Assembly (NCBI GenBank): GCA_028716485.1 | Contig: JAQUPS010000006.1 | Coordinates: 651-64,650 of the forward strand | From: Patescibacteria group bacterium | GTDB lineage: Bacteria; Patescibacteriota; Patescibacteriia; Patescibacteriales; WJLG01 | Length of the DNA stretch: 64,000 nt | Direction of reading: 5' to 3' | Shown: positions 11,054 to 63,287 of the stretch, piece by piece | Position numbering within the stretch: the stretch's first letter is position 1 | How the letters are laid out: every line of letters starts with the position of its first letter | The notes under the pieces: generated by a model | What the model was told of the DNA's origin: nothing | What the model saw: the letters and a program-made list of their open reading frames with translations, nothing else | Database searches by the model: none | Program-made: the position numbers and the translations under genes

Positions 11054-11129
11054 ATTTCAAGTATAGCATAGATCATTCTTATGCTCAATACATTATTACA
11101 ATATAATTAACTAATTAAGTCAAATTGTC

Positions 11130-11158
11130 TTGACATTGTTCTCCTCTCTTGTTATACT
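11130..11158 (+). promoter_or_regulatory. sigma70-like promoter TTGACA-17-TATACT upstream of rpmA
   Basis: ttgaca at 11130-11135 and tatact at 11153-11158. A ~100-nt leader carries catgttt-type 8-nt periodic repeats. Confidence 0.5.
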
Positions 11159-11257
11159 GCTTAATAATGAACCGCCAAATTCGATTCATTTTATTTTTTT
11201 AAATTAATATGCTACATGTTTCCATGATCTCATGTTTTCATGTTTCAATGATTGAAT

Positions 11258-11545
11258 ATGTCTCATAAGAAAGCAGCGGGCGTAACCAGATTGGGCCGCG
11301 ATTCCGCTTCCCAGCGCTTAGGAGTTAAAAAGGGCGACGGCCAGTTCGCCAAGTCCGGCAATATCATCATCCGCCAGCGCGGCACGCAATATTTCGCCGG
11401 CAAAAATGTGAAGATGGGCGTTGACCATACTTTGTTCGCCACCGCCGCCGGTTTGGTCAAATTCACCGAAAAGACGATGAAGAAATTTGATAATCGCTCC
11501 GCGCGCGTCAAAGTCGTCAATGTAATTCCGGCCAAGAAAAAATAA
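11258..11545 (+). CDS. rpmA: 50S ribosomal protein L27
   Basis: [29 protein letters not shown]...IIIRQRGT is a canonical L27. ATG at 11258; the track ORF begins at a TTG at 11252. Confidence 0.95.
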
Positions 11546-11557
11546 TTTCCGCCAATA

Positions 11558-11588
11558 AAAAACTGCTCCGGATAATGGGGCAGTTTTT
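11558..11588. terminator. hairpin terminator between convergent genes
   Basis: aaaaactgctcc ggataat ggggcagttttt: stem with one G-U pair, A-run and T-run on either side. Confidence 0.5.
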
Positions 11589-11592
11589 GCTT

Positions 11593-11829
11593 TTAAAAAT
11601 TCAGTTCCTTTACTCCCAAGTCATCATTATGCATTTCCACCAAGAGCTTTAGATCATCTTCTTCTTCAATGATTGGCGGACCAGACGGTTTTCCCGGAAG
11701 TTCTTCGACCGCTTCTCCGATTGGGTCATTATCCGGATCTTCTTCCCTGACTTTAACGACTTTTTCCAATTCCTCCACGCTAAGAGGCTGGAAATGTCTT
11801 GCCGGTTTGAAGGATTTTTTTTGTTTCAA
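11593..11829 (-). CDS. acidic hypothetical protein
   Basis: 78-aa ORF with a TTG start preceded by a strong SD (agggaggcacc). Lies immediately downstream of pyrG. Confidence 0.55.
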   Translation of the reverse strand: MKQKKSFKPARHFQPLSVEELEKVVKVREEDPDNDPIGEAVEELPGKPSGPPIIEEEDDLKLLVEMHNDDLGVKELNF

Positions 11830-11869
11830 GGTGCCTCCCTTGTCGTAATTTGTTGATGAAAAAAGAACC

Positions 11870-18045: not shown

Positions 18046-18055
18046 ACTGCATTTT

Positions 18056-18088
18056 ATAGATCCCTCGCCCGGGGCTCGGGATGACAAA
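18056..18088. repeat. family-1 palindromic element, solo half copy
   Basis: atagatccctcgcccggggctcgggatgacaaa is the reverse complement of the tttgtcatcc...ggatctat unit seen at 27339 and 37409. Confidence 0.65.
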
Positions 18089-24880: not shown

Positions 24881-24979
24881 TTGTGGGAGACTATTTAATG
24901 CTAAATGCTAAATGCTAAATTATATACAATGATTTAGCATTTAGCATTCATCGTTTAGCATTTTGTCGATTTACCACAA
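24881..24979. repeat. 7-nt periodic inverted repeat (aatgcta / atttagc units) closed by ttgtgg/ccacaa
   Basis: Left arm 24897-24920 and right arm 24932-24962. Same unit as 28086-28131. Confidence 0.75.
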
Positions 24980-27338: not shown

Positions 27339-27474
27339 TTTGTCATCCCGAGCCTCTGGCGAGGGATCTATATTGGACAAATGTAGGGCCTCAAAGACCA
27401 AAATTTTTGCCACCTAAGTGATTATTGTTTGGATAATAGATCCTTCTCCGCCAGGGGCGGATCAGGATGACAAA
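27339..27474. repeat. family-1 composite palindromic element (MITE-like, 136 bp)
   Basis: tttgtcatcccgagcctctggcgagggatctat (27339-27371) and its inverted partner (27436-27474) flank a 64-nt core containing aaatttttg. Confidence 0.7.
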
Positions 27475-27481
27475 AAAATTC

Positions 27482-28078
27482 ATGATATTAGGAATTAAAA
27501 AGCTCCACGAATTGGTAGAGGAAATAAAATTAGTGGAAGGTTTGTGCGAGCGGGAAATGAACAATCCCGAAGGCGCGGGCTTTGATTTACGCTTGAGCGA
27601 GGTTTATCAGCTCGAGGGTGACGGATTTTTGGGCGTGGAAGAGCGGCAAACTCCGGCGGCTAAATTGATTGCTAAAGCAAAAAATTCCCCTCTCGAGAGG
27701 GGTGGCCAGCCCCTGGCTGGACGGGGTGTGTTAAACGCCGGCGATTCAGAAGATGCTTTCGTTTTTCAACCCGGCAAATATTATTTGATCAAGACGATGG
27801 AAAAAGTTAATCTGCCGACCAATCTTTCCGGCATTATTTTTCCCCGCACTACGATGTTCCGTTCCGGAATCGGGATGTTCAACGGCATAGTCCAGCCTGG
27901 CTATTCCGGCGAATTGACTTTCGGCGTCTGTAACCTTGGCCAATCCAATATTAAAATTTCTTTTGGCGCCCGCGTCGCCCATATCACTTTCCACGAAGTC
28001 CTCGGCGAGGGCAATCAATACAAAGGCCAATGGCAAGGCGGCCGCGTTTCTACCGGAGCCAAGGAAACTCAAATATGA
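27482..28078 (+). CDS. dcd: dCTP deaminase / dUTPase-superfamily protein
   Basis: MILGIKKLHELV start, GFDLRL, PRTTMFRSGI, VQPGYSGELTFGVCN. The track start at 27467 lies inside the repeat. Confidence 0.75.
   Translation: MILGIKKLHELVEEIKLVEGLCEREMNNPEGAGFDLRLSEVYQLEGDGFLGVEERQTPAAKLIAKAKNSPLERGGQPLAGRGVLNAGDSEDAFVFQPGKYYLIKTMEKVNLPTNLSGIIFPRTTMFRSGIGMFNGIVQPGYSGELTFGVCNLGQSNIKISFGARVAHITFHEVLGEGNQYKGQWQGGRVSTGAKETQI
27681..27736. repeat. family-2 double-hairpin element lying inside the dcd reading frame
   Basis: aaaattcccctctcgagaggggtggccagcccctggctggacggggtgtgtt encodes KNSPLERGGQPLAGRGVL. Confidence 0.55.
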
Positions 28079-28085
28079 AATTAAT

Positions 28086-28131
28086 AATGCTAAATGCTAA
28101 ATTTTTTATTTAGCATTTAGCATTTAGCATT
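28086..28131. repeat. 7-nt periodic inverted repeat (aatgcta / atttagc)
   Basis: Left arm 28086-28102 and right arm 28108-28131. Ends 2 nt before the thyA ATG. Confidence 0.75.
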
Positions 28132-28133
28132 AA

Positions 28134-29123
28134 ATGCAACATCCCGAACAACAATACCTCGACCTAATGCGCGATTTGCTTAAAAATGGCATTGAGCAAG
28201 TCGATGCCGGCACCGGCGTAAAGACTTATTCCCTTTTCGGGCGGCAAATCCGTTTTGATTTAAGCCAAGGCTTCCCGCTTTTGACGACCAAAAAAATATT
28301 TTGGCGCGGAATCGTGGAAGAAGTTTTTTGGTTTTTATCCGGCCAAAATAATATTAAATATTTAGTTGATAAAAATATTCACATTTGGGACGACTATCCT
28401 TACCGCATTTACCGGGAAAAAATGGCAACGGGGCAGGAAAAGGAAATGACCAAAGAGGAATTTATCGCCCAGATCGCCGCCGATAATGATTTTGCCGCCG
28501 AACACGGCGCTTTGCCGCATATTTACGGCGATATGTGGCGTCATTGGCCGACTCGAGCTGGCAAGACGATTGACCAGGTTCAATGGGTCGTCGATACTTT
28601 AAAAAAAGACCCAAGCGCGCATAATGCGCTGGTTAATTCCTGGAATCCCGAATATCTTTATGAAATGGCCGCGCCGGGCGAAGCCTGCCGCTTCCCGATC
28701 TGCCATAATTTATATCAAGTGAGCGTTCGCGGGGATAAATTGTTCCTACAGCTTTATCAGCGCACGGCTGACATATTTTTGGGCGTGCCTTTTAATATCG
28801 CCTCCTATGCGCTTTTGACAATAATTCTGGCGCAGATAATCGGTTATCAGCCGGGCGAATTCATCCATACTTTCGGCGATGTCCATTATTATGAAAATCA
28901 TCGCGAGGCAATCAAAGAACAATTGACCCGCGAACCGCTCCCCTTTCCGACTGTAAAATTAAATTCCAATGTTAAAAATATCGATGATTTCAAGCCGGAA
29001 TCTGTCGAACTTGTCGGTTATGAATCGCATCCGCCGATCAAAGCCGAACTTTCTCCTACCGGCGGCATCGTCGATAAATCCTGGAAAAAATTCGTGCAAG
29101 ATGAGAAGTCGAATAAAAAATAA
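28134..29123 (+). CDS. thyA: thymidylate synthase (ThyA)
   Basis: QQYLDLMRDLL start, FPICHNLYQ active-site Cys, and the DIFLGVPFNIASYALL motif. Confidence 0.95.
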   Translation: MQHPEQQYLDLMRDLLKNGIEQVDAGTGVKTYSLFGRQIRFDLSQGFPLLTTKKIFWRGIVEEVFWFLSGQNNIKYLVDKNIHIWDDYPYRIYREKMATGQEKEMTKEEFIAQIAADNDFAAEHGALPHIYGDMWRHWPTRAGKTIDQVQWVVDTLKKDPSAHNALVNSWNPEYLYEMAAPGEACRFPICHNLYQVSVRGDKLFLQLYQRTADIFLGVPFNIASYALLTIILAQIIGYQPGEFIHTFGDVHYYENHREAIKEQLTREPLPFPTVKLNSNVKNIDDFKPESVELVGYESHPPIKAELSPTGGIVDKSWKKFVQDEKSNKK

Positions 29124-29152: not shown

Positions 29153-29626
29153 ATGATATCAATGATCTGCGCAATCGGGCGCAACCGAGAAATCGGCAAT
29201 AAAAATAGCTTGCTTTGGAATATAAAGGGTGACATGAAACATTTTGTTCAAGCTACCCGCGGCAAAACGGTTGTTATGGGCGAAACGACCTATCATTCTT
29301 TGTTTATCAAGCCTTTGCCCGGCCGGCATAATATTGTTTTGACGATAAATAAGGATTTGATCGCGCCCGGCTGTGAAATATCTTTTGATCTGCAAGCGGT
29401 GGCGGAAAAATATCAGAATTCGCCCAAGGAAGTTTTTATTATCGGCGGCGCTTCTATTTATAAGCAATTCATCCCTTACGCTTCGAAACTTTATCTGACT
29501 TTAGTCGATGACGCGCCGGCGGCTGATACTTTTTTTCCTGATTATTCCGATTTCAAGATTATCTCCGAAAGCGAGACGCAAGAAGAAAACGGGATAAAGT
29601 ATAAATTCGCGGAATTAATGAAATAA
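29153..29626 (+). CDS. folA: dihydrofolate reductase
   Basis: ISMICAIGRNREIGNKNSLLWNIKGDMKHF...VVMGETTY...IIGGASIY. Confidence 0.9.
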   Translation: MISMICAIGRNREIGNKNSLLWNIKGDMKHFVQATRGKTVVMGETTYHSLFIKPLPGRHNIVLTINKDLIAPGCEISFDLQAVAEKYQNSPKEVFIIGGASIYKQFIPYASKLYLTLVDDAPAADTFFPDYSDFKIISESETQEENGIKYKFAELMK

Positions 29627-29661
29627 AAAAGGGCGAAGAAGTTGTTAAACTATCTTCGCCC
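29625..29661 (-). terminator. intrinsic terminator read on the minus strand (9-bp GC stem + U6)
   Basis: Minus strand reads gggcgaaga tagtttaacaac ttcttcgccc tttttt. On the plus strand the same hairpin follows folA with only a weak T tract. Confidence 0.65.
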
Positions 29662-29988
29662 TTGTGAGCACGGTCGTCGTGGCTGGTCGACGCGTGCTGA
29701 GCACGGACGTTGGATTGGTGTTAAGCATTGTGGCTTATCGTCAATAATCCAAGTCCGGTTTGGTCCGCGGCGAATTCGTCGGTTAAGCCATTGCTCATTA
29801 AATAATGAGCTAAGGCAGAGCCGGATGAGGCGACCAAGGCATAATGTGCGATGGATAAGCCATCTCCGGTCTCATAACCAAGACGAATCACGTCCGCGGC
29901 GCGTGTTGGCCAGCATTGATGCCGTTGTTCAGTAGTGAGCTGAAGAATGGGCTACTGGCCAAAATCAAAAGGAACATCTCAATGTTGT
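29626..29988 (-). ncRNA. candidate structured ncRNA of unknown class (~360 nt)
   Basis: Visibly GC-rich island in a 425-nt gap with 7+ consecutive hairpins. A minus-strand promoter lies at 29995-30023 and a minus-strand terminator at 29625-29661. No plausible protein frame. Confidence 0.45.
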
Positions 29989-29994
29989 ATAAGA

Positions 29995-30023
29995 ATATTA
30001 TCACAAAACAAAAATATTGTCAA
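29995..30023 (-). promoter_or_regulatory. sigma70-like promoter on the minus strand, TTGACA-17-TAATAT
   Basis: Minus strand reads ttgaca atatttttgttttgtga taatat (plus tgtcaa 30018-30023, atatta 29995-30000), with TG upstream of the -10. Confidence 0.5.
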
Positions 30024-30051
30024 TAGCTCATGAGAATAATTCAATGATATT

Positions 30052-30603
30052 ATGAAAAATAAGCTAATATTAGCGGTAGTAGGAATGTGCGGTTCGGGTA
30101 AAAGCGAGGTCGTAAAATACCTGGTCAAGAAATTAAATTGGCCGGTTGTTTATCTGGGCGAGATTACTTTTGATTGGATGAAAAAGAAAAAATTGGCGAT
30201 AAATAATCAAACGGAAATGTTCGCCCGCGAAAAAATCCGCGCCGAGCACGGCATGGGCGCTTATGCCAAATTATCTTTGCCGAAAATAGCCGCGCTCTTG
30301 AAAAAAAATCAAGGCGTCATCGTGGAAAGCTTATACAGCTGGAGCGAATATAAAATCTTAAAAGAAAAATACGACGATAGATTCAAGATTGTCGCCGCGC
30401 ACGCCTCCCCTGCCATCCGATTCAAACGGCTCAAATCAAGAAAAAATAATCGCCCGATGAAAAATTACGCCGAGTTCAAGGCCCGCGATTATTCGGAAAT
30501 CGAAAATATTGAGAAAGGCGGGCCGATCGCCATGGCCGATTATCTGATTCTTAACGAAGGGAATCTGCGCGACTTGCATAAAAAATTAGATAGTATAAGA
30601 TAA
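30052..30603 (+). CDS. P-loop nucleotide/nucleoside kinase-like protein (CoaE/dNMP-kinase-like)
   Basis: ILAVVGMCGSGKSEV Walker A. Small size and position after the thyA-folA cluster. Confidence 0.55.
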   Translation: MKNKLILAVVGMCGSGKSEVVKYLVKKLNWPVVYLGEITFDWMKKKKLAINNQTEMFAREKIRAEHGMGAYAKLSLPKIAALLKKNQGVIVESLYSWSEYKILKEKYDDRFKIVAAHASPAIRFKRLKSRKNNRPMKNYAEFKARDYSEIENIEKGGPIAMADYLILNEGNLRDLHKKLDSIR

Positions 30604-45530: not shown

Positions 45531-45707
45531 AATCCGAAACGAATTAGAAATACTAAGCGCGAAATTCGAAATAAATTGTTATCAACAAGATATAGCGTAA
45601 ATTTTGGAGCTTCAGCCGTTTCGGATTTTGTATTTCGTTTTTCGGATTTACGAAGTTCGTAGTATTCGGATATTTTGTAGATTCGGATTATATTTTTTTA
45701 TTCCGCG
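45531..45707. repeat. periodic inverted repeats (aatccga/tcggatt and tacgaa/ttcgta units)
   Basis: aaatccgaaacgaatt...cgaaattcgaaat on the left faces gtttcggatttt...tttcggatttacgaagttcgtagtattcggat...attcggatt on the right. Confidence 0.65.
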
Positions 45708-57553: not shown

Positions 57554-57625
57554 TAAATAAAAAATTATTTATGATGAATTTAGGAATGCTCTTTCTTTAA
57601 CGCTTGCCAAAAAAGGAGGTAAAAA

Positions 57626-57859
57626 ATGGATTGCAAAGACAAGCGGATAATAAATGCCCTGGTTTTTGCTTCTTCCGATTCTGATCCGCCCAAGCTTGAC
57701 GACACGAAAGCTTTGGAAATCTACACTGAAGTCGCCAAAGAATTAGCGGCTCAGGAAGAAAATCAAAGCGAAAAAGCGTTGTCTCAACCGTCCCGGCATT
57801 TCCTGCAGACCCTGAAGAAAGTGCTGGACAGAATGTACGCCATAACCGCGGAGGATTAA
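57626..57859 (+). CDS. hypothetical protein
   Basis: 77-aa ORF with a strong SD (aaaggaggtaaaaaATG) and a downstream terminator. Confidence 0.55.
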   Translation: MDCKDKRIINALVFASSDSDPPKLDDTKALEIYTEVAKELAAQEENQSEKALSQPSRHFLQTLKKVLDRMYAITAED

Positions 57860-57878
57860 ATGACCAGAGCAACCGTTG

Positions 57879-57920
57879 AAGGACGCGATTATTTTTTAAT
57901 AATACGCGTCCTTTTCTTTT
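57879..57920 (+). terminator. intrinsic terminator (aaggacgcg / cgcgtcctt + T-rich)
   Basis: Stem 57879-57887 / 57905-57913, then ttctttt. Confidence 0.6.
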
Positions 57921-57972
57921 CGAATATCGGATTTCGGATTTTGGATATGCTCTTTGATCTTTGCTCTTAATC

Positions 57973-63126: not shown

Positions 63127-63287
63127 AAACGTTGATCATATAATCCGAACCTACGAAATATCCGAATACTACGAACAAATTAAACAAATTATGACTTCAT
63201 CTTACCATAGTTTACGAAAAATAAAAGAGGGAGATAAAAACATCTTCCTCAATTGAAATAGCTAAAATAATTTTACCAATACAATAT

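What the first reader, a model, noticed from the sequence alone, without database searches (positions are those of the whole stretch)
29626..30023. Stand-alone ~360-nt GC-rich structured RNA candidate with its own promoter and terminator, antisense to the flanking nucleotide-metabolism genes
**Evidence for a transcription unit**
- The 425-nt gap between folA and the kinase gene is conspicuously more GC-rich than its surroundings.
- On the minus strand there is a near-consensus promoter (TTGACA, 17 nt, TAATAT at 30023-29995).
- The region ends in a minus-strand intrinsic terminator: a 9-bp GC stem plus U6 at 29661-29625.

**Hairpins read in between (plus-strand coordinates)**
- ttggccag / ctggccaa (29905-12 / 29953-60).
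- cacg...cgtg around ccgcggc.
- gagccggatg / catctccggtctc, enclosing a helix with a tandem AG/GA internal loop.
- A 12-bp helix around gctcatt aaat aatgagc.
- ggcg aatt cgtc.
- ttggatt / aatccaa, enclosing taagc / gctta.
- agcacg / cgtgct, where a second agcacg copy offers alternative pairing.

The only ORF here (29642-29935, plus strand) is Arg-rich nonsense.

**Known classes checked by eye**
I could not find the RNase P CR-I/CR-V motifs at proper spacing, a tmRNA tRNA-like end or tag frame, or the SRP GGAA/AGCA domain IV motif. It may be a new RNA class or a very divergent known one.
Basis: partly seen in the sequence, partly recalled or inferred. Interest (0 to 1): 0.7.

Follow-up and report, generated by a model that had tools for sequence, protein, structure and literature searches.

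The report
Fast-evolving structured small RNA gene
Between the folA gene and a kinase gene of an ultrasmall (Patescibacteria) bacterium lies a probably genuine gene, about 360 bases long, for a tightly folded non-coding RNA that matches no known RNA family and whose relatives in sister genomes keep its promoter, start and end but have a largely different middle.

Summary
Window 29625-30023 (minus strand) carries:
- a perfect -35 / extended -10 promoter;
- a 26-nt unpaired leader;
- four hairpin domains;
- a strong intrinsic terminator.

It is the strongest folding outlier in the 64-kb window (z = -9.2; -7.4 without the terminator). It is also the most GC-rich non-coding gap.

It does not look protein-coding:
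- codon scores are poor in all six frames;
- neither the longest minus-strand reading frames nor the long plus-strand ORF found a homologue among 5.8 billion protein clusters;
- no ORF is conserved in relatives.

It matches no Rfam family, tRNA or tmRNA, and no other copy was found in any collection searched.

Syntenic loci from related Patescibacteria settle most of the question. Some have folA overlapping the kinase gene, with no element. Seven distinct relatives (nine loci) carry one to three minus-strand units of 85-640 nt in the same place. Every unit tested folds strongly (z -4.2 to -10.4). Promoter, leader, first hairpin, P2 stem and 3' hairpin modules are shared mosaically. Compensatory and G.U changes favour the minus strand. 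The middle of the window's RNA aligns with none of them.

Verdict: a probably real, lineage-restricted, fast-evolving structured sRNA gene from an unnamed family. Its function is unknown and expression is untested.

The parts
29995..30023 (-). Sigma-70-type promoter: -35 TTGACA (30023-30018), 17-nt spacer ending in TGA (extended -10 TG at 30003-30002), -10 TAATAT (30000-29995). The predicted transcription start is A at about 29988.
   Evidence: 10/12 matches, TG present. The same TATTGACAAT...TTTGTGATAnnAT arrangement sits at the same position in L094, L096, L098 and L099. L101 and L102 have a weaker version...AAATGATA, without the TG.
29963..29988 (-). Unpaired, AU-rich 5' leader: ACAACAUUGAGAUGUUCCUUUUGAUU. 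It is the best-conserved transcribed segment of the family.
   Evidence: Unpaired in both the MFE and centroid folds. Related leaders: ACAACAUCGGAAAGCACCUUUG (L098B), ACAACUUUGAAUCGCACCUUUUG (L098A), ACGAGUUUGGAUAGCACUUUCG (L094A), ACGAUUACAGAUUGAACUUUUC (L096B).
29906..29962 (-). Hairpin 1: 10-bp outer stem UUGGCCAGUA/UGCUGGCCAA, inner GCC/GGC, apical UUCAG/CUGAA.
   Evidence: The GGCCAG/CUGGCC stem is kept in L098B and L096B. The seventh pair reads U.G (window), C-G (L098B) and U-A (L096B).
29765..29899 (-). P2 domain. The long-range helix CCGCGG/CCGCGG, then GAUUCGUC/GACGAAUU, then GGUUA/UAACC closes a three-way junction with two hairpins (29873-29818 and 29816-29787).
   Evidence: Folded alone: MFE -63 kcal/mol, z = -7.76, MFE frequency 0.12 in the ensemble. 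The outer stem is shared with L098B (CCGCG/CGCGG) and L096B (CCGUG/CGCGG, a U.G wobble in the minus sense only). This was read from the sequences.
29704..29757 (-). Hairpin 3: CGGAC/GUCCG, UUGGAU/AUCCAA, UAAGC/GCUUA.
   Evidence: No alignable counterpart in relatives.
29667..29698 (-). Hairpin 4, next to the terminator: AGCACG-CGUCG / CGACG-CGUGCU.
   Evidence: L096B has AAGCAC...GUGCUU followed by the same ACA(CA)AGGG linker and a terminator.
29625..29663 (-). Intrinsic terminator: stem AAGGGCGAAGA-AGUU...AACU-UCUUCGCCCUU, then U6. The U-tract overlaps the folA stop codon by 2 nt. The hairpin reads the same on both strands, but only the minus strand has a proper U-tract.
   Evidence: On the plus strand the stem is followed by UUGUG only.
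29153..29626 (+). folA (dihydrofolate reductase), the left neighbour, convergent with the RNA gene.
   Evidence: Pfam DHFR_1, E = 3.4e-47.
30052..30603 (+). AAA_17/AAA_18 nucleotide-kinase-like gene, the right neighbour, divergent from the RNA promoter. It has no Shine-Dalgarno sequence.
   Evidence: Orthologues in L094 and L098 are 80% and 75% identical.

Best explanation
Window 29988 to about 29625 (minus strand) is an independently transcribed gene for a non-coding RNA of about 364 nt.

**Layout (shown).**
- A strong constitutive-type promoter.
- A 26-nt single-stranded leader.
- Four stable hairpin domains.
- An intrinsic terminator that stops the transcript just as it reaches the end of folA.

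**Family (shown).** It belongs to an unnamed, lineage-restricted RNA family that occupies the folA-kinase spacer in a clade of Patescibacteria. Members are modular. They share the promoter, the leader and some end hairpins. The interior hairpins are gained, lost and replaced quickly. Some genomes carry two or three units in tandem.

**Mechanism (inferred, not shown).** I think the RNA itself is the functional product. The most likely mode is a trans-acting regulatory or protein-binding sRNA. The conserved unpaired 5' leader would be the interaction surface. The GC-rich hairpin stack and terminator would mainly give stability.
For: **Transcription signals.**

**Structure far beyond chance.**
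- z = -9.2, -7.35 without the terminator, -7.76 for the P2 domain.
- Top outlier of the window.

**Not coding.**
- No Pfam match.
- No homologue for the longest minus-strand reading frames or the long plus-strand ORF among 5.8 billion clusters.
- Codon score of the best frame is -0.015, against 0.219 +/- 0.091 for real genes.
- No ORF is shared among relatives. The L094A and L098A homologues differ by frame-shifting indels.

**Positional homologues.** L094/L095, L096/L097, L098, L099, L045, L101 and L102 all carry minus-strand units between folA and the orthologous kinase. The ten units folded have z from -4.2 to -10.4.

**Shared modules.**
- Promoter and leader.
- Hairpin 1, with a covarying seventh pair.
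- The 3' hairpin with linker and terminator, shared between the window and L096.
- L098B links the window-type 5' end to the 3' module of L045, L094B and L099B.

**Selection on pairing in family members.**
- 3' module: 12 of 27 pairs carry compensatory changes across 4 sequences.
- Unit A pair: 85 consensus pairs, 7 compensatory changes, 9 one-sided wobble changes, none broken. Consensus energy is -107 kcal/mol in the minus sense against -86 in the plus sense.
- With the L098A fold imposed, 92% of cells pair, against 38-51% when the partners are slid.
Against: - No expression data.
- The middle roughly 200 nt of the window's RNA has no alignable homologue, so its particular fold is supported by thermodynamics only.
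- The only other copies are 100% identical, in three Logan assemblies.
- The nearest relatives (FolA 86-87%: L043, L091-93) and L100 lack the element, so it is dispensable.
- The window's minus-strand fold has only 2 G.U among 116 pairs. The plus strand folds even more stably (-165.7 kcal/mol, 16 G.U). Within the window alone, strand is therefore set by the promoter and U-tract, not by pairing.
- The leader has no better-than-random target in the 64-kb window or in the relatives' loci.
- The promoter type is the general strong promoter of these genomes, so promoter similarity alone is weak evidence of homology.
- Covariation rests on 2-4 sequences per module.
Confidence: 0.55

Rival explanations
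1. A transcriptional cassette whose work is done at the DNA or transcription level. The element splits an ancestral folA-kinase operon. Its two-way hairpin ends folA transcription. The conserved promoter region restarts the kinase-gatB genes, possibly as a leaderless mRNA from TTGTCA-17-TTCAAT-6-ATG, whose -35 overlaps the RNA promoter's -35 on the other strand. The minus-strand RNA would then be a by-product. Alternatively it acts only in cis, through promoter competition, convergent transcription, or antisense pairing with plus-strand read-through.
For: - In L043 and L091-93, folA overlaps the kinase start, so co-transcription is a plausible ancestral state.
- The best-conserved part is the promoter block next to the kinase.
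- Body length varies from 85 to 640 nt and the body sequence is poorly conserved.
- The kinase has no Shine-Dalgarno sequence, and the -35/-10/ATG spacing recurs in the window, L098, L096 and L094 (read from sequence).
- The plus-strand terminator has a weak U-tract, so read-through would be fully complementary to the RNA.
Against: - Units A in L094 and L098 are not next to the kinase, yet they keep the promoter, the leader and a conserved fold with compensatory changes.
- A by-product would not be expected to hold z of -4 to -10 in every unit, nor covarying hairpins.
- The proposed plus-strand -10 is poorly conserved (TTCAAT, ATCAAT, TTATCA, GCAATT, ACTAGT).
- The plus-strand TTGTCA follows automatically from TTGACAA on the other strand.
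Confidence: 0.2
2. A mobile or selfish insertion: a MITE-like element, or a pile-up of palindromic repeats in a permissive intergenic spot. The promoter-like and terminator-like features would be incidental.
For: - Presence is patchy among close relatives.
- The folA-kinase junction is a variable spot that elsewhere holds a GNAT gene, an HD-like gene, a kinase paralogue, or a small palindromic repeat (L042, weak WsnRNA46-like match).
- The region weakly resembles its own reverse complement (nhmmer E about 2e-8).
- L096 also carries long AT-rich perfect hairpins.
Against: - No terminal inverted repeats. The only strict palindrome is the terminator.
- The apparent direct repeat ATGAAATAA/ATGAAAAATAA is explained by the conserved FolA C-terminus (ELxK*) seen in L042, L004 and L045.
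- No second copy in the window.
- No copy in phage or plasmid records, IMG/VR or JGI metagenomes.
- Units always lie in one orientation at one locus, with conserved promoter and leader.
Confidence: 0.1
3. A heavily folded mRNA for a small protein, for example a type I toxin such as the 29-aa MFLLILASSPFFSSLLNNGINAGQHAPRT that starts at 29977, or the 56-aa GTG ORF at 29891-29721.
For: - Type I toxin mRNAs such as hok are 300-400 nt, highly structured, stand-alone and patchily distributed (general knowledge).
- The first ORF has a hydrophobic N-terminus.
Against: - No ribosome-binding site in front of either ORF.
- No protein homologues and no Pfam match.
- Codon scores are non-coding.
- No equivalent ORF in L096B, L098B or the other units.
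- The 16-residue hydrophobic stretch is too short for a typical membrane helix.
Confidence: 0.05
4. A very divergent copy of a universal RNA: RNase P RNA, tmRNA, 6S RNA or SRP RNA.
For: The size (about 360 nt) matches RNase P RNA and tmRNA. No such RNA is annotated in the window.
Against: - No Rfam match on either strand, even at E up to 10 with relaxed filters. The same holds for all homologous loci.
- ARAGORN finds no tmRNA.
- Family members range from 85 to 640 nt and lack a conserved core, which does not fit any universal RNA.
- The element is absent from close relatives.
Confidence: 0.03

Closest known systems
Stand-alone bacterial regulatory sRNA genes with a conserved 5' seed and a variable remainder (for example the RybB/OmrA type). 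This comparison rests on general knowledge.
   Same: - An orphan transcription unit in an intergenic spacer, with its own sigma-70 promoter and intrinsic terminator.
- Non-coding.
- The 5' single-stranded end is the best-conserved transcribed part.
- Narrow phylogenetic range and rapid sequence turnover.
   Different: - It is 3-6 times longer than typical sRNAs (364 nt here, up to about 640 nt in relatives).
- It has an unusually large, GC-rich multi-hairpin body.
- No target was found.
- No Hfq or ProQ context is known for this phylum.
Large structured ncRNAs found by the GC-rich-intergenic-region approach (OLE, GOLLD, ROOL, HEARO, raiA; Rfam families)
   Same: - A long, GC-rich, strongly folded RNA standing out in an AT-rich intergenic background.
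- No coding potential.
   Different: - Those families keep a conserved sequence and structure core across wide phylogenetic distances. Here the interior is not conserved even among genomes whose FolA proteins are about 80% identical to the window's.
- No Rfam match.
6S RNA and Ms1 RNA (RNA-polymerase-binding RNAs)
   Same: - Highly structured.
- Sequence-variable.
- Driven by a strong promoter.
- Ms1 is about 300 nt.
   Different: - The minus-strand fold has no closing stem between the 5' and 3' ends and no central bubble.
- Length varies 7-fold within the family.
- No Rfam 6S match.
Type I toxin mRNAs (hok-like)
   Same: - A stand-alone, highly folded RNA of 300-400 nt.
- Patchy distribution.
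   Different: No conserved small ORF, no ribosome-binding site, and no identifiable antisense partner.
Bacterial MITEs that carry promoters or terminators (Correia, ERIC, RUP)
   Same: - An intergenic insertion inside an operon.
- Folds into stable hairpins.
- Carries transcription signals.
- Absent from close relatives.
   Different: - No terminal inverted repeats or target-site duplication.
- Single copy.
- Fixed locus and orientation across genomes.

Membership tests
Bacterial RNase P RNA | Match to the RNaseP_bact_a/b covariance models (conserved CR-I to CR-V and P4). | tested here: not met
   cmscan found no hit at the gathering threshold, nor at E up to 10 with relaxed filters, on either strand.
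tmRNA | A tRNA-like domain plus a tag-peptide reading frame. | tested here: not met
   ARAGORN found 0 genes in the window and in the homologous loci. No Rfam tmRNA hit.
6S RNA / SRP RNA | Match to the Rfam 6S or SRP models; for 6S, a closing stem with a central bubble; for SRP, the domain IV motif. | tested here: not met
   No Rfam hit. In the MFE and centroid folds the 5' leader is unpaired rather than paired with the 3' end.
Known large ncRNAs (OLE, GOLLD, ROOL, HEARO, raiA) and riboswitches | Match to the family covariance model. | tested here: not met
   0 of 4227 Rfam families matched in the whole window at gathering. Only chance-level hits (E of 1 or more) appeared in 29400-30250.
MITE | Terminal inverted repeats. 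| tested here: not met
   Aligning the region to its own reverse complement recovers only the terminator hairpin.
MITE | Multiple dispersed copies. | tested here: not met
   None in the 64-kb window, phages, plasmids, IMG/VR or JGI metagenomes. The rest of the genome could not be searched.
MITE | Target-site duplication. | tested here: inconclusive
   ATGAAATAA (29618-26) resembles ATGAAAAATAA (30052-62). However, the left copy is homologous to the conserved FolA end seen in L042, L004 and L045.
Type I toxin-antitoxin | A conserved small hydrophobic ORF with a ribosome-binding site. | tested here: not met
   No homologues, no shared ORF in positional homologues, non-coding codon scores.
Stand-alone bacterial sRNA gene (generic kind) | Own promoter and intrinsic terminator on one strand, in an intergenic region. 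| tested here: met
   The same arrangement is seen in L094, L096, L098, L099, L101 and L102.
Stand-alone bacterial sRNA gene (generic kind) | No protein-coding capacity. | tested here: met
Stand-alone bacterial sRNA gene (generic kind) | Conservation of sequence or structure in relatives. | tested here: inconclusive
   The ends are conserved. Other family members show covariation. The interior of the window's own RNA is not alignable.
Stand-alone bacterial sRNA gene (generic kind) | A discrete transcript is detected. | not testable with these tools
   No transcriptome data were accessible.

The most novel reading that the evidence does not exclude
The folA-kinase spacer of this Patescibacteria clade may be a dedicated locus for a new class of modular, hypervariable, highly expressed structured RNAs. 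They would have a conserved 5' leader and exchangeable hairpin cassettes, in one to three tandem units of 85-640 nt. Their fast turnover and dispensability would reflect an arms-race role, for example RNA-based interference with phages, or with the host cell on which these epibionts depend, rather than housekeeping regulation.
Probability: 0.1. Interest if true: 0.8.

Novelty: new member of a known kind. Interest (0 to 1): 0.45.

Why it matters
Patescibacteria have tiny, gene-dense genomes, and I found no paper describing regulatory RNAs in them. A 0.4-1.1-kb non-coding stretch sits inside a nucleotide-metabolism operon in several lineages and is filled with strongly folded RNAs driven by strong promoters. 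That is unexpected for such streamlined genomes.

It also gives a concrete, testable entry point:
- a defined promoter;
- a defined leader;
- defined module boundaries;
- a set of natural presence/absence and copy-number variants.

If the RNA is abundant, it could also serve as a marker or as an expression scaffold in these hard-to-manipulate organisms. If it proves to be only an operon-splitting cassette, it still shows how operons are rewired in reduced genomes.

Tried and rejected
**Known RNA families.**
- Rfam at the gathering threshold on the whole window, and at E up to 10 on the locus: only chance hits (S774, P31, RT-6, mir-101).
- Rfam on 14 related loci: nothing relevant.
- ARAGORN: nothing.

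**Protein coding.**
- Pfam on the three local ORFs: nothing.
- Protein search with the concatenated minus-strand frames and with the plus-strand ORF: zero hits each.
- tblastn of genes found at this junction in other genomes (HD-like, kinase paralogue, GNAT, small ORFs) against all units: no remnants, so the element is not a decayed gene.

**Other copies of the element.**
- Repeats in the window: none involve the element.
- blastn against phages and plasmids: chance hits only.
- Translated-pattern scans of IMG/VR and JGI metagenomes: nothing.

**Mobile-element features.**
- Self reverse-complement alignment for terminal inverted repeats: only the terminator.
- A target-site-duplication reading of ATGAAATAA/ATGAAAAATAA: dropped after alignment with L042, L004 and L045.

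**Alignment with relatives.** Whole-length alignment of the window with L098B and L096B: only hairpin 1 and nearby positions are credible.

**Function.**
- Leader-target searches in the window and in each relative's own locus: no better than shuffled leaders, and no shared target.
- I considered an 'anti-Shine-Dalgarno' reading of the leader's CACCUUU. I dropped it because the neighbouring genes (thyA, folA, the kinase and gatB) have no Shine-Dalgarno sequence (read).

**Literature.** The searches found no description of such RNAs in Patescibacteria.

**Tools.** The mirrored-structure energies were discarded because non-canonical pairs are not properly penalised there.
Full report
**1. What is in the sequence**

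The 425-nt gap between folA (29153-29626, +; DHFR_1, E = 3e-47) and an AAA_17/18 kinase-like gene (30052-30603, +) carries a complete minus-strand transcription unit:
- a promoter: TTGACA (30023-18), a 17-nt spacer ending in TGA, and TAATAT (30000-29995). It is the best promoter-like site in 2 kb, with 10/12 matches plus an extended -10;
- a predicted start at A 29988;
- a terminator: an 11+4-bp GC-rich stem (29663-29629) followed by U6 then AUUU. The U-tract overlaps the folA stop codon by 2 nt.

On the plus strand the same hairpin is followed only by UUGUG. As a terminator it therefore reads best in the minus sense.

**2. Is the structure more than chance?**

Yes.
- The 365-nt minus-strand RNA folds to -141.2 kcal/mol. 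Dinucleotide shuffles give -92.9 +/- 5.2, so z = -9.2.
- Without the terminator z = -7.35.
- The central 135-nt domain alone gives z = -7.76, and its MFE makes up 12% of the ensemble.
- In a scan of the whole window (300-nt windows, 100-nt steps, MFE regressed on GC), this locus is the top outlier on both strands.
- It is also the most GC-rich of the 17 non-coding gaps of at least 150 nt: 0.46, or 0.50 for the RNA body. The others are 0.21-0.41.

The fold is:
- an unpaired leader (29988-63);
- hairpin 1 (29962-06);
- a P2 domain closed by CCGCGG/CCGCGG with a three-way junction (29899-65);
- hairpin 3 (29757-04);
- hairpin 4 (29698-67);
- the terminator.

Two small local hairpins are replaced by the long-range P2 helix.

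One caveat. The plus strand folds at least as well (-165.7 kcal/mol, z = -8.75, 16 G.U pairs). The minus-strand fold has only 2 G.U among 116 pairs. Within the window alone, strand is therefore assigned from the promoter and U-tract, not from pairing.

**3. Not a protein gene and not a known RNA**

- The local ORFs (56 aa, 38 aa and 27 aa on the minus strand; 97 aa on the plus strand) have no Pfam match.
- They have no homologue among 5.8 billion protein clusters.
- Codon-usage scores for all six frames range from -0.69 to -0.015. Real genes of this window score 0.219 +/- 0.091.
- Rfam gives nothing at the gathering threshold in all 64 kb, and only chance hits at E of 1 or more on the locus.
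- ARAGORN finds no tRNA or tmRNA.
- No other copy exists in the window.
- None was found in phage or plasmid records, IMG/VR or JGI metagenomes.
- The only other occurrences are 100% identical copies in three Logan assemblies.
- The identical FolA is labelled in NCBI as coming from a 'Patescibacteria group bacterium' MAG.

**4. Comparative evidence**

I fetched syntenic loci through FolA.

*Relatives without the element.*
- In L043 and L091-93 (FolA 86-87% identical), folA overlaps the start of the orthologous kinase.
- L100 has a protein gene in that place.
- L042 has a kinase paralogue plus a small palindromic repeat.

*Relatives with non-coding units.* L094/L095, L096/L097, L098, L099 (FolA 81-83%), L045 (73%), L101 and L102 have stretches of 146-1159 nt after folA with few or no called genes. 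Two short ORFs called there, in L094 and L098, have no Pfam match.
- In L094 and L098 the kinase downstream is the window's orthologue, 80% and 75% identical.
- These stretches are made of one to three minus-strand units.
- The complete units start at a TTGACA-17-TAnnAT-type promoter, weaker in L101 and L102. The units next to the kinase in L094, L096, L098 and L099 have the same TGTGATA extended -10. All units end at a strong hairpin with a U-tract.
- The ten units folded have z between -4.2 and -10.4.
- None has an Rfam match.
- None is a remnant of a neighbouring gene.
- No ORF is shared, and the L094A and L098A homologues differ by frame-shifting indels.

**5. How the window's RNA relates to these units**

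By sequence, only the ends align. blastn finds just the promoter region against L098. nhmmer links 29848-30050 to L098 (E = 6e-9) and to L096 (E = 1e-3).

| Module | Window | Relatives |
|---|---|---|
| Promoter block | TATTGACAAT...TTTGTGATAnnAT | same in the units next to the kinase |
| Leader | ACAACAUUGAGAUGUUCCUUUUG | ACAACAUCGGAAAGCACCUUUG (L098B), ACAACUUUGAAUCGCACCUUUUG (L098A), ACGAGUUUGGAUAGCACUUUCG (L094A) |
| Hairpin 1, stem GGCCAG/CUGGCC, seventh pair | U.G | C-G (L098B), U-A (L096B) |
| Linker and outer P2 stem | CCGCGG/CCGCGG | CCGCG/CGCGG (L098B), CCGUG/CGCGG (L096B; its U.G is possible only in the minus sense) |
| Hairpin next to terminator, ACA(CA)AGGG linker, terminator | AGCACG...CGUGCU | AAGCAC...GUGCUU (L096B only) |

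L098B combines the window-type 5' end with the 3' module of L045, L094B and L099B. The units therefore form one mosaic family. The interior of the window's RNA (the inner part of P2, and hairpin 3) aligns with nothing.

**6. Evidence for selection on RNA pairing in the family**

- 3' module of L098B, L045, L094B and L099B: 12 of 27 pairs carry compensatory changes.
- Unit A, L098A against L094A (73-80% identical):
  - The consensus structure has 85 pairs, 7 with compensatory changes, 9 with one-sided wobble changes, and none broken.
  - Consensus energy is -107 kcal/mol in the minus sense against -86 in the plus sense.
  - With the L098A single-sequence fold imposed, 92% of cells pair, against 38-51% with slid partners. 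There are 5 compensatory changes, 11 one-sided wobble changes and 16 broken pairs, the broken ones mostly in two doubtful helices.

These counts rest on 2-4 sequences. They support the case without deciding it.

**7. Interpretation**

*Shown.*
- A non-coding, exceptionally foldable unit bounded by a promoter and a terminator.
- It sits at a locus where related genomes carry homologous units.
- The ends of those units are conserved, and their hairpins tolerate only pair-preserving changes.

*Inferred.*
- The RNA is made and is the functional product.
- The conserved unpaired leader is its interaction surface.
- The hairpin stack provides stability.

I found no target for the leader in the window or in the relatives' loci, so the mode of action stays open.

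*Main rival: an operon-splitting cassette.* The promoter block is the best-conserved part. The kinase has no Shine-Dalgarno sequence. A plus-strand TTGTCA-17-TTCAAT-6-ATG would give a leaderless kinase mRNA from a promoter whose -35 overlaps that of the RNA promoter. Plus-strand read-through would be fully antisense to the RNA. Against this, the A units are not next to the kinase, yet they keep their promoter, leader and fold.

*Other readings.* The MITE, small-protein and known-RNA readings each fail tested defining features.

The promoter type is also seen in front of an unrelated unit in L101. Promoter similarity alone is therefore weak evidence of homology.

**8. Novelty and score**

This is a new, unnamed RNA family of a familiar general kind, the stand-alone bacterial sRNA gene. 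Its unusual traits are:
- length (364 nt here, up to about 640 nt in relatives);
- tandem units;
- a mosaic, fast-changing interior;
- its presence in a streamlined Patescibacteria genome.

It is not a deeply conserved 'large ncRNA', and it is dispensable in close relatives. Its function is unknown and its expression unverified. Interest is moderate: 0.45.

Noticed in passing
window 24893-24963 and 28071-28135: Runs of the heptamer AATGCTA/TAGCATT. 28-nt arms are 100% complementary and lie 3.2 kb apart. The right-hand run sits immediately upstream of the thyA start (28134). It could be an operator-like site or the boundaries of a segment (I5, I12, I21, I25).
   Followed up: no
window 18055-18088 and 27339-27372; L042 1076-1181: 34-nt inverted copies of TATAGATCCCTCGCCCGGGGCTCGGGATGACAAA. 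The same GTCATCCCG-type palindrome fills the 100-nt folA-kinase gap of relative L042, where it gives a sub-threshold WsnRNA46 match (42 bits, gathering 65). This is probably a small MITE-like palindromic repeat family in these genomes.
   Followed up: partly
window 45655-45693 and 63138-63176: A 39-nt inverted repeat, 95% complementary, with arms 17.4 kb apart. It may mark the ends of a mobile or invertible segment (I2).
   Followed up: no
L101 2155-2400 (+): Upstream of folA in a relative: a TTGACA-17-TACAAT promoter, a GC-rich region of about 200 nt and a plus-strand terminator. This is another candidate sRNA with no Rfam match.
   Followed up: partly
L096 2972-3217: Two long, AT-rich, near-perfect hairpins (246 nt, GC 0.37, z = -8.7) lie between folA and the RNA unit. 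They look like palindromic insertions rather than part of the RNA family.
   Followed up: no
window 30017-30054: The kinase gene has no Shine-Dalgarno sequence, and neither do folA or thyA. TTGTCA-17-TTCAAT-6-ATG suggests a leaderless mRNA. Its -35 overlaps the RNA promoter's -35 on the opposite strand. The spacing recurs in L098, L096 and L094 (read).
   Followed up: partly
window 1-64000: No tRNA gene and no Rfam family at the gathering threshold anywhere in the 64 kb.
   Followed up: yes
window 11054-11869 and 57554-57972: These are the next most GC-rich non-coding gaps (GC 0.41; 816 and 419 nt). Each lies at a perfect TTGACA promoter on the plus strand (11130 and 57547). They may hold small genes or further RNAs.
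   Followed up: no
window 29627-29935 (+): The 97-aa Arg-rich plus-strand ORF is in frame with folA, directly after its TAA stop. Several units in relatives also have long open plus-strand frames (58-144 codons). These are not conserved as proteins, shift frame between homologues and score as non-coding. They are probably a by-product of GC-rich helices.
   Followed up: yes
L101 4600-4802 (-): The same strong promoter type (TTGACAAT...TTTGTGGTATAAT) precedes a 170-nt unit with a Lys-rich open frame and a terminator, at an unrelated locus. This shows the promoter is a general consensus in these genomes.
   Followed up: partly
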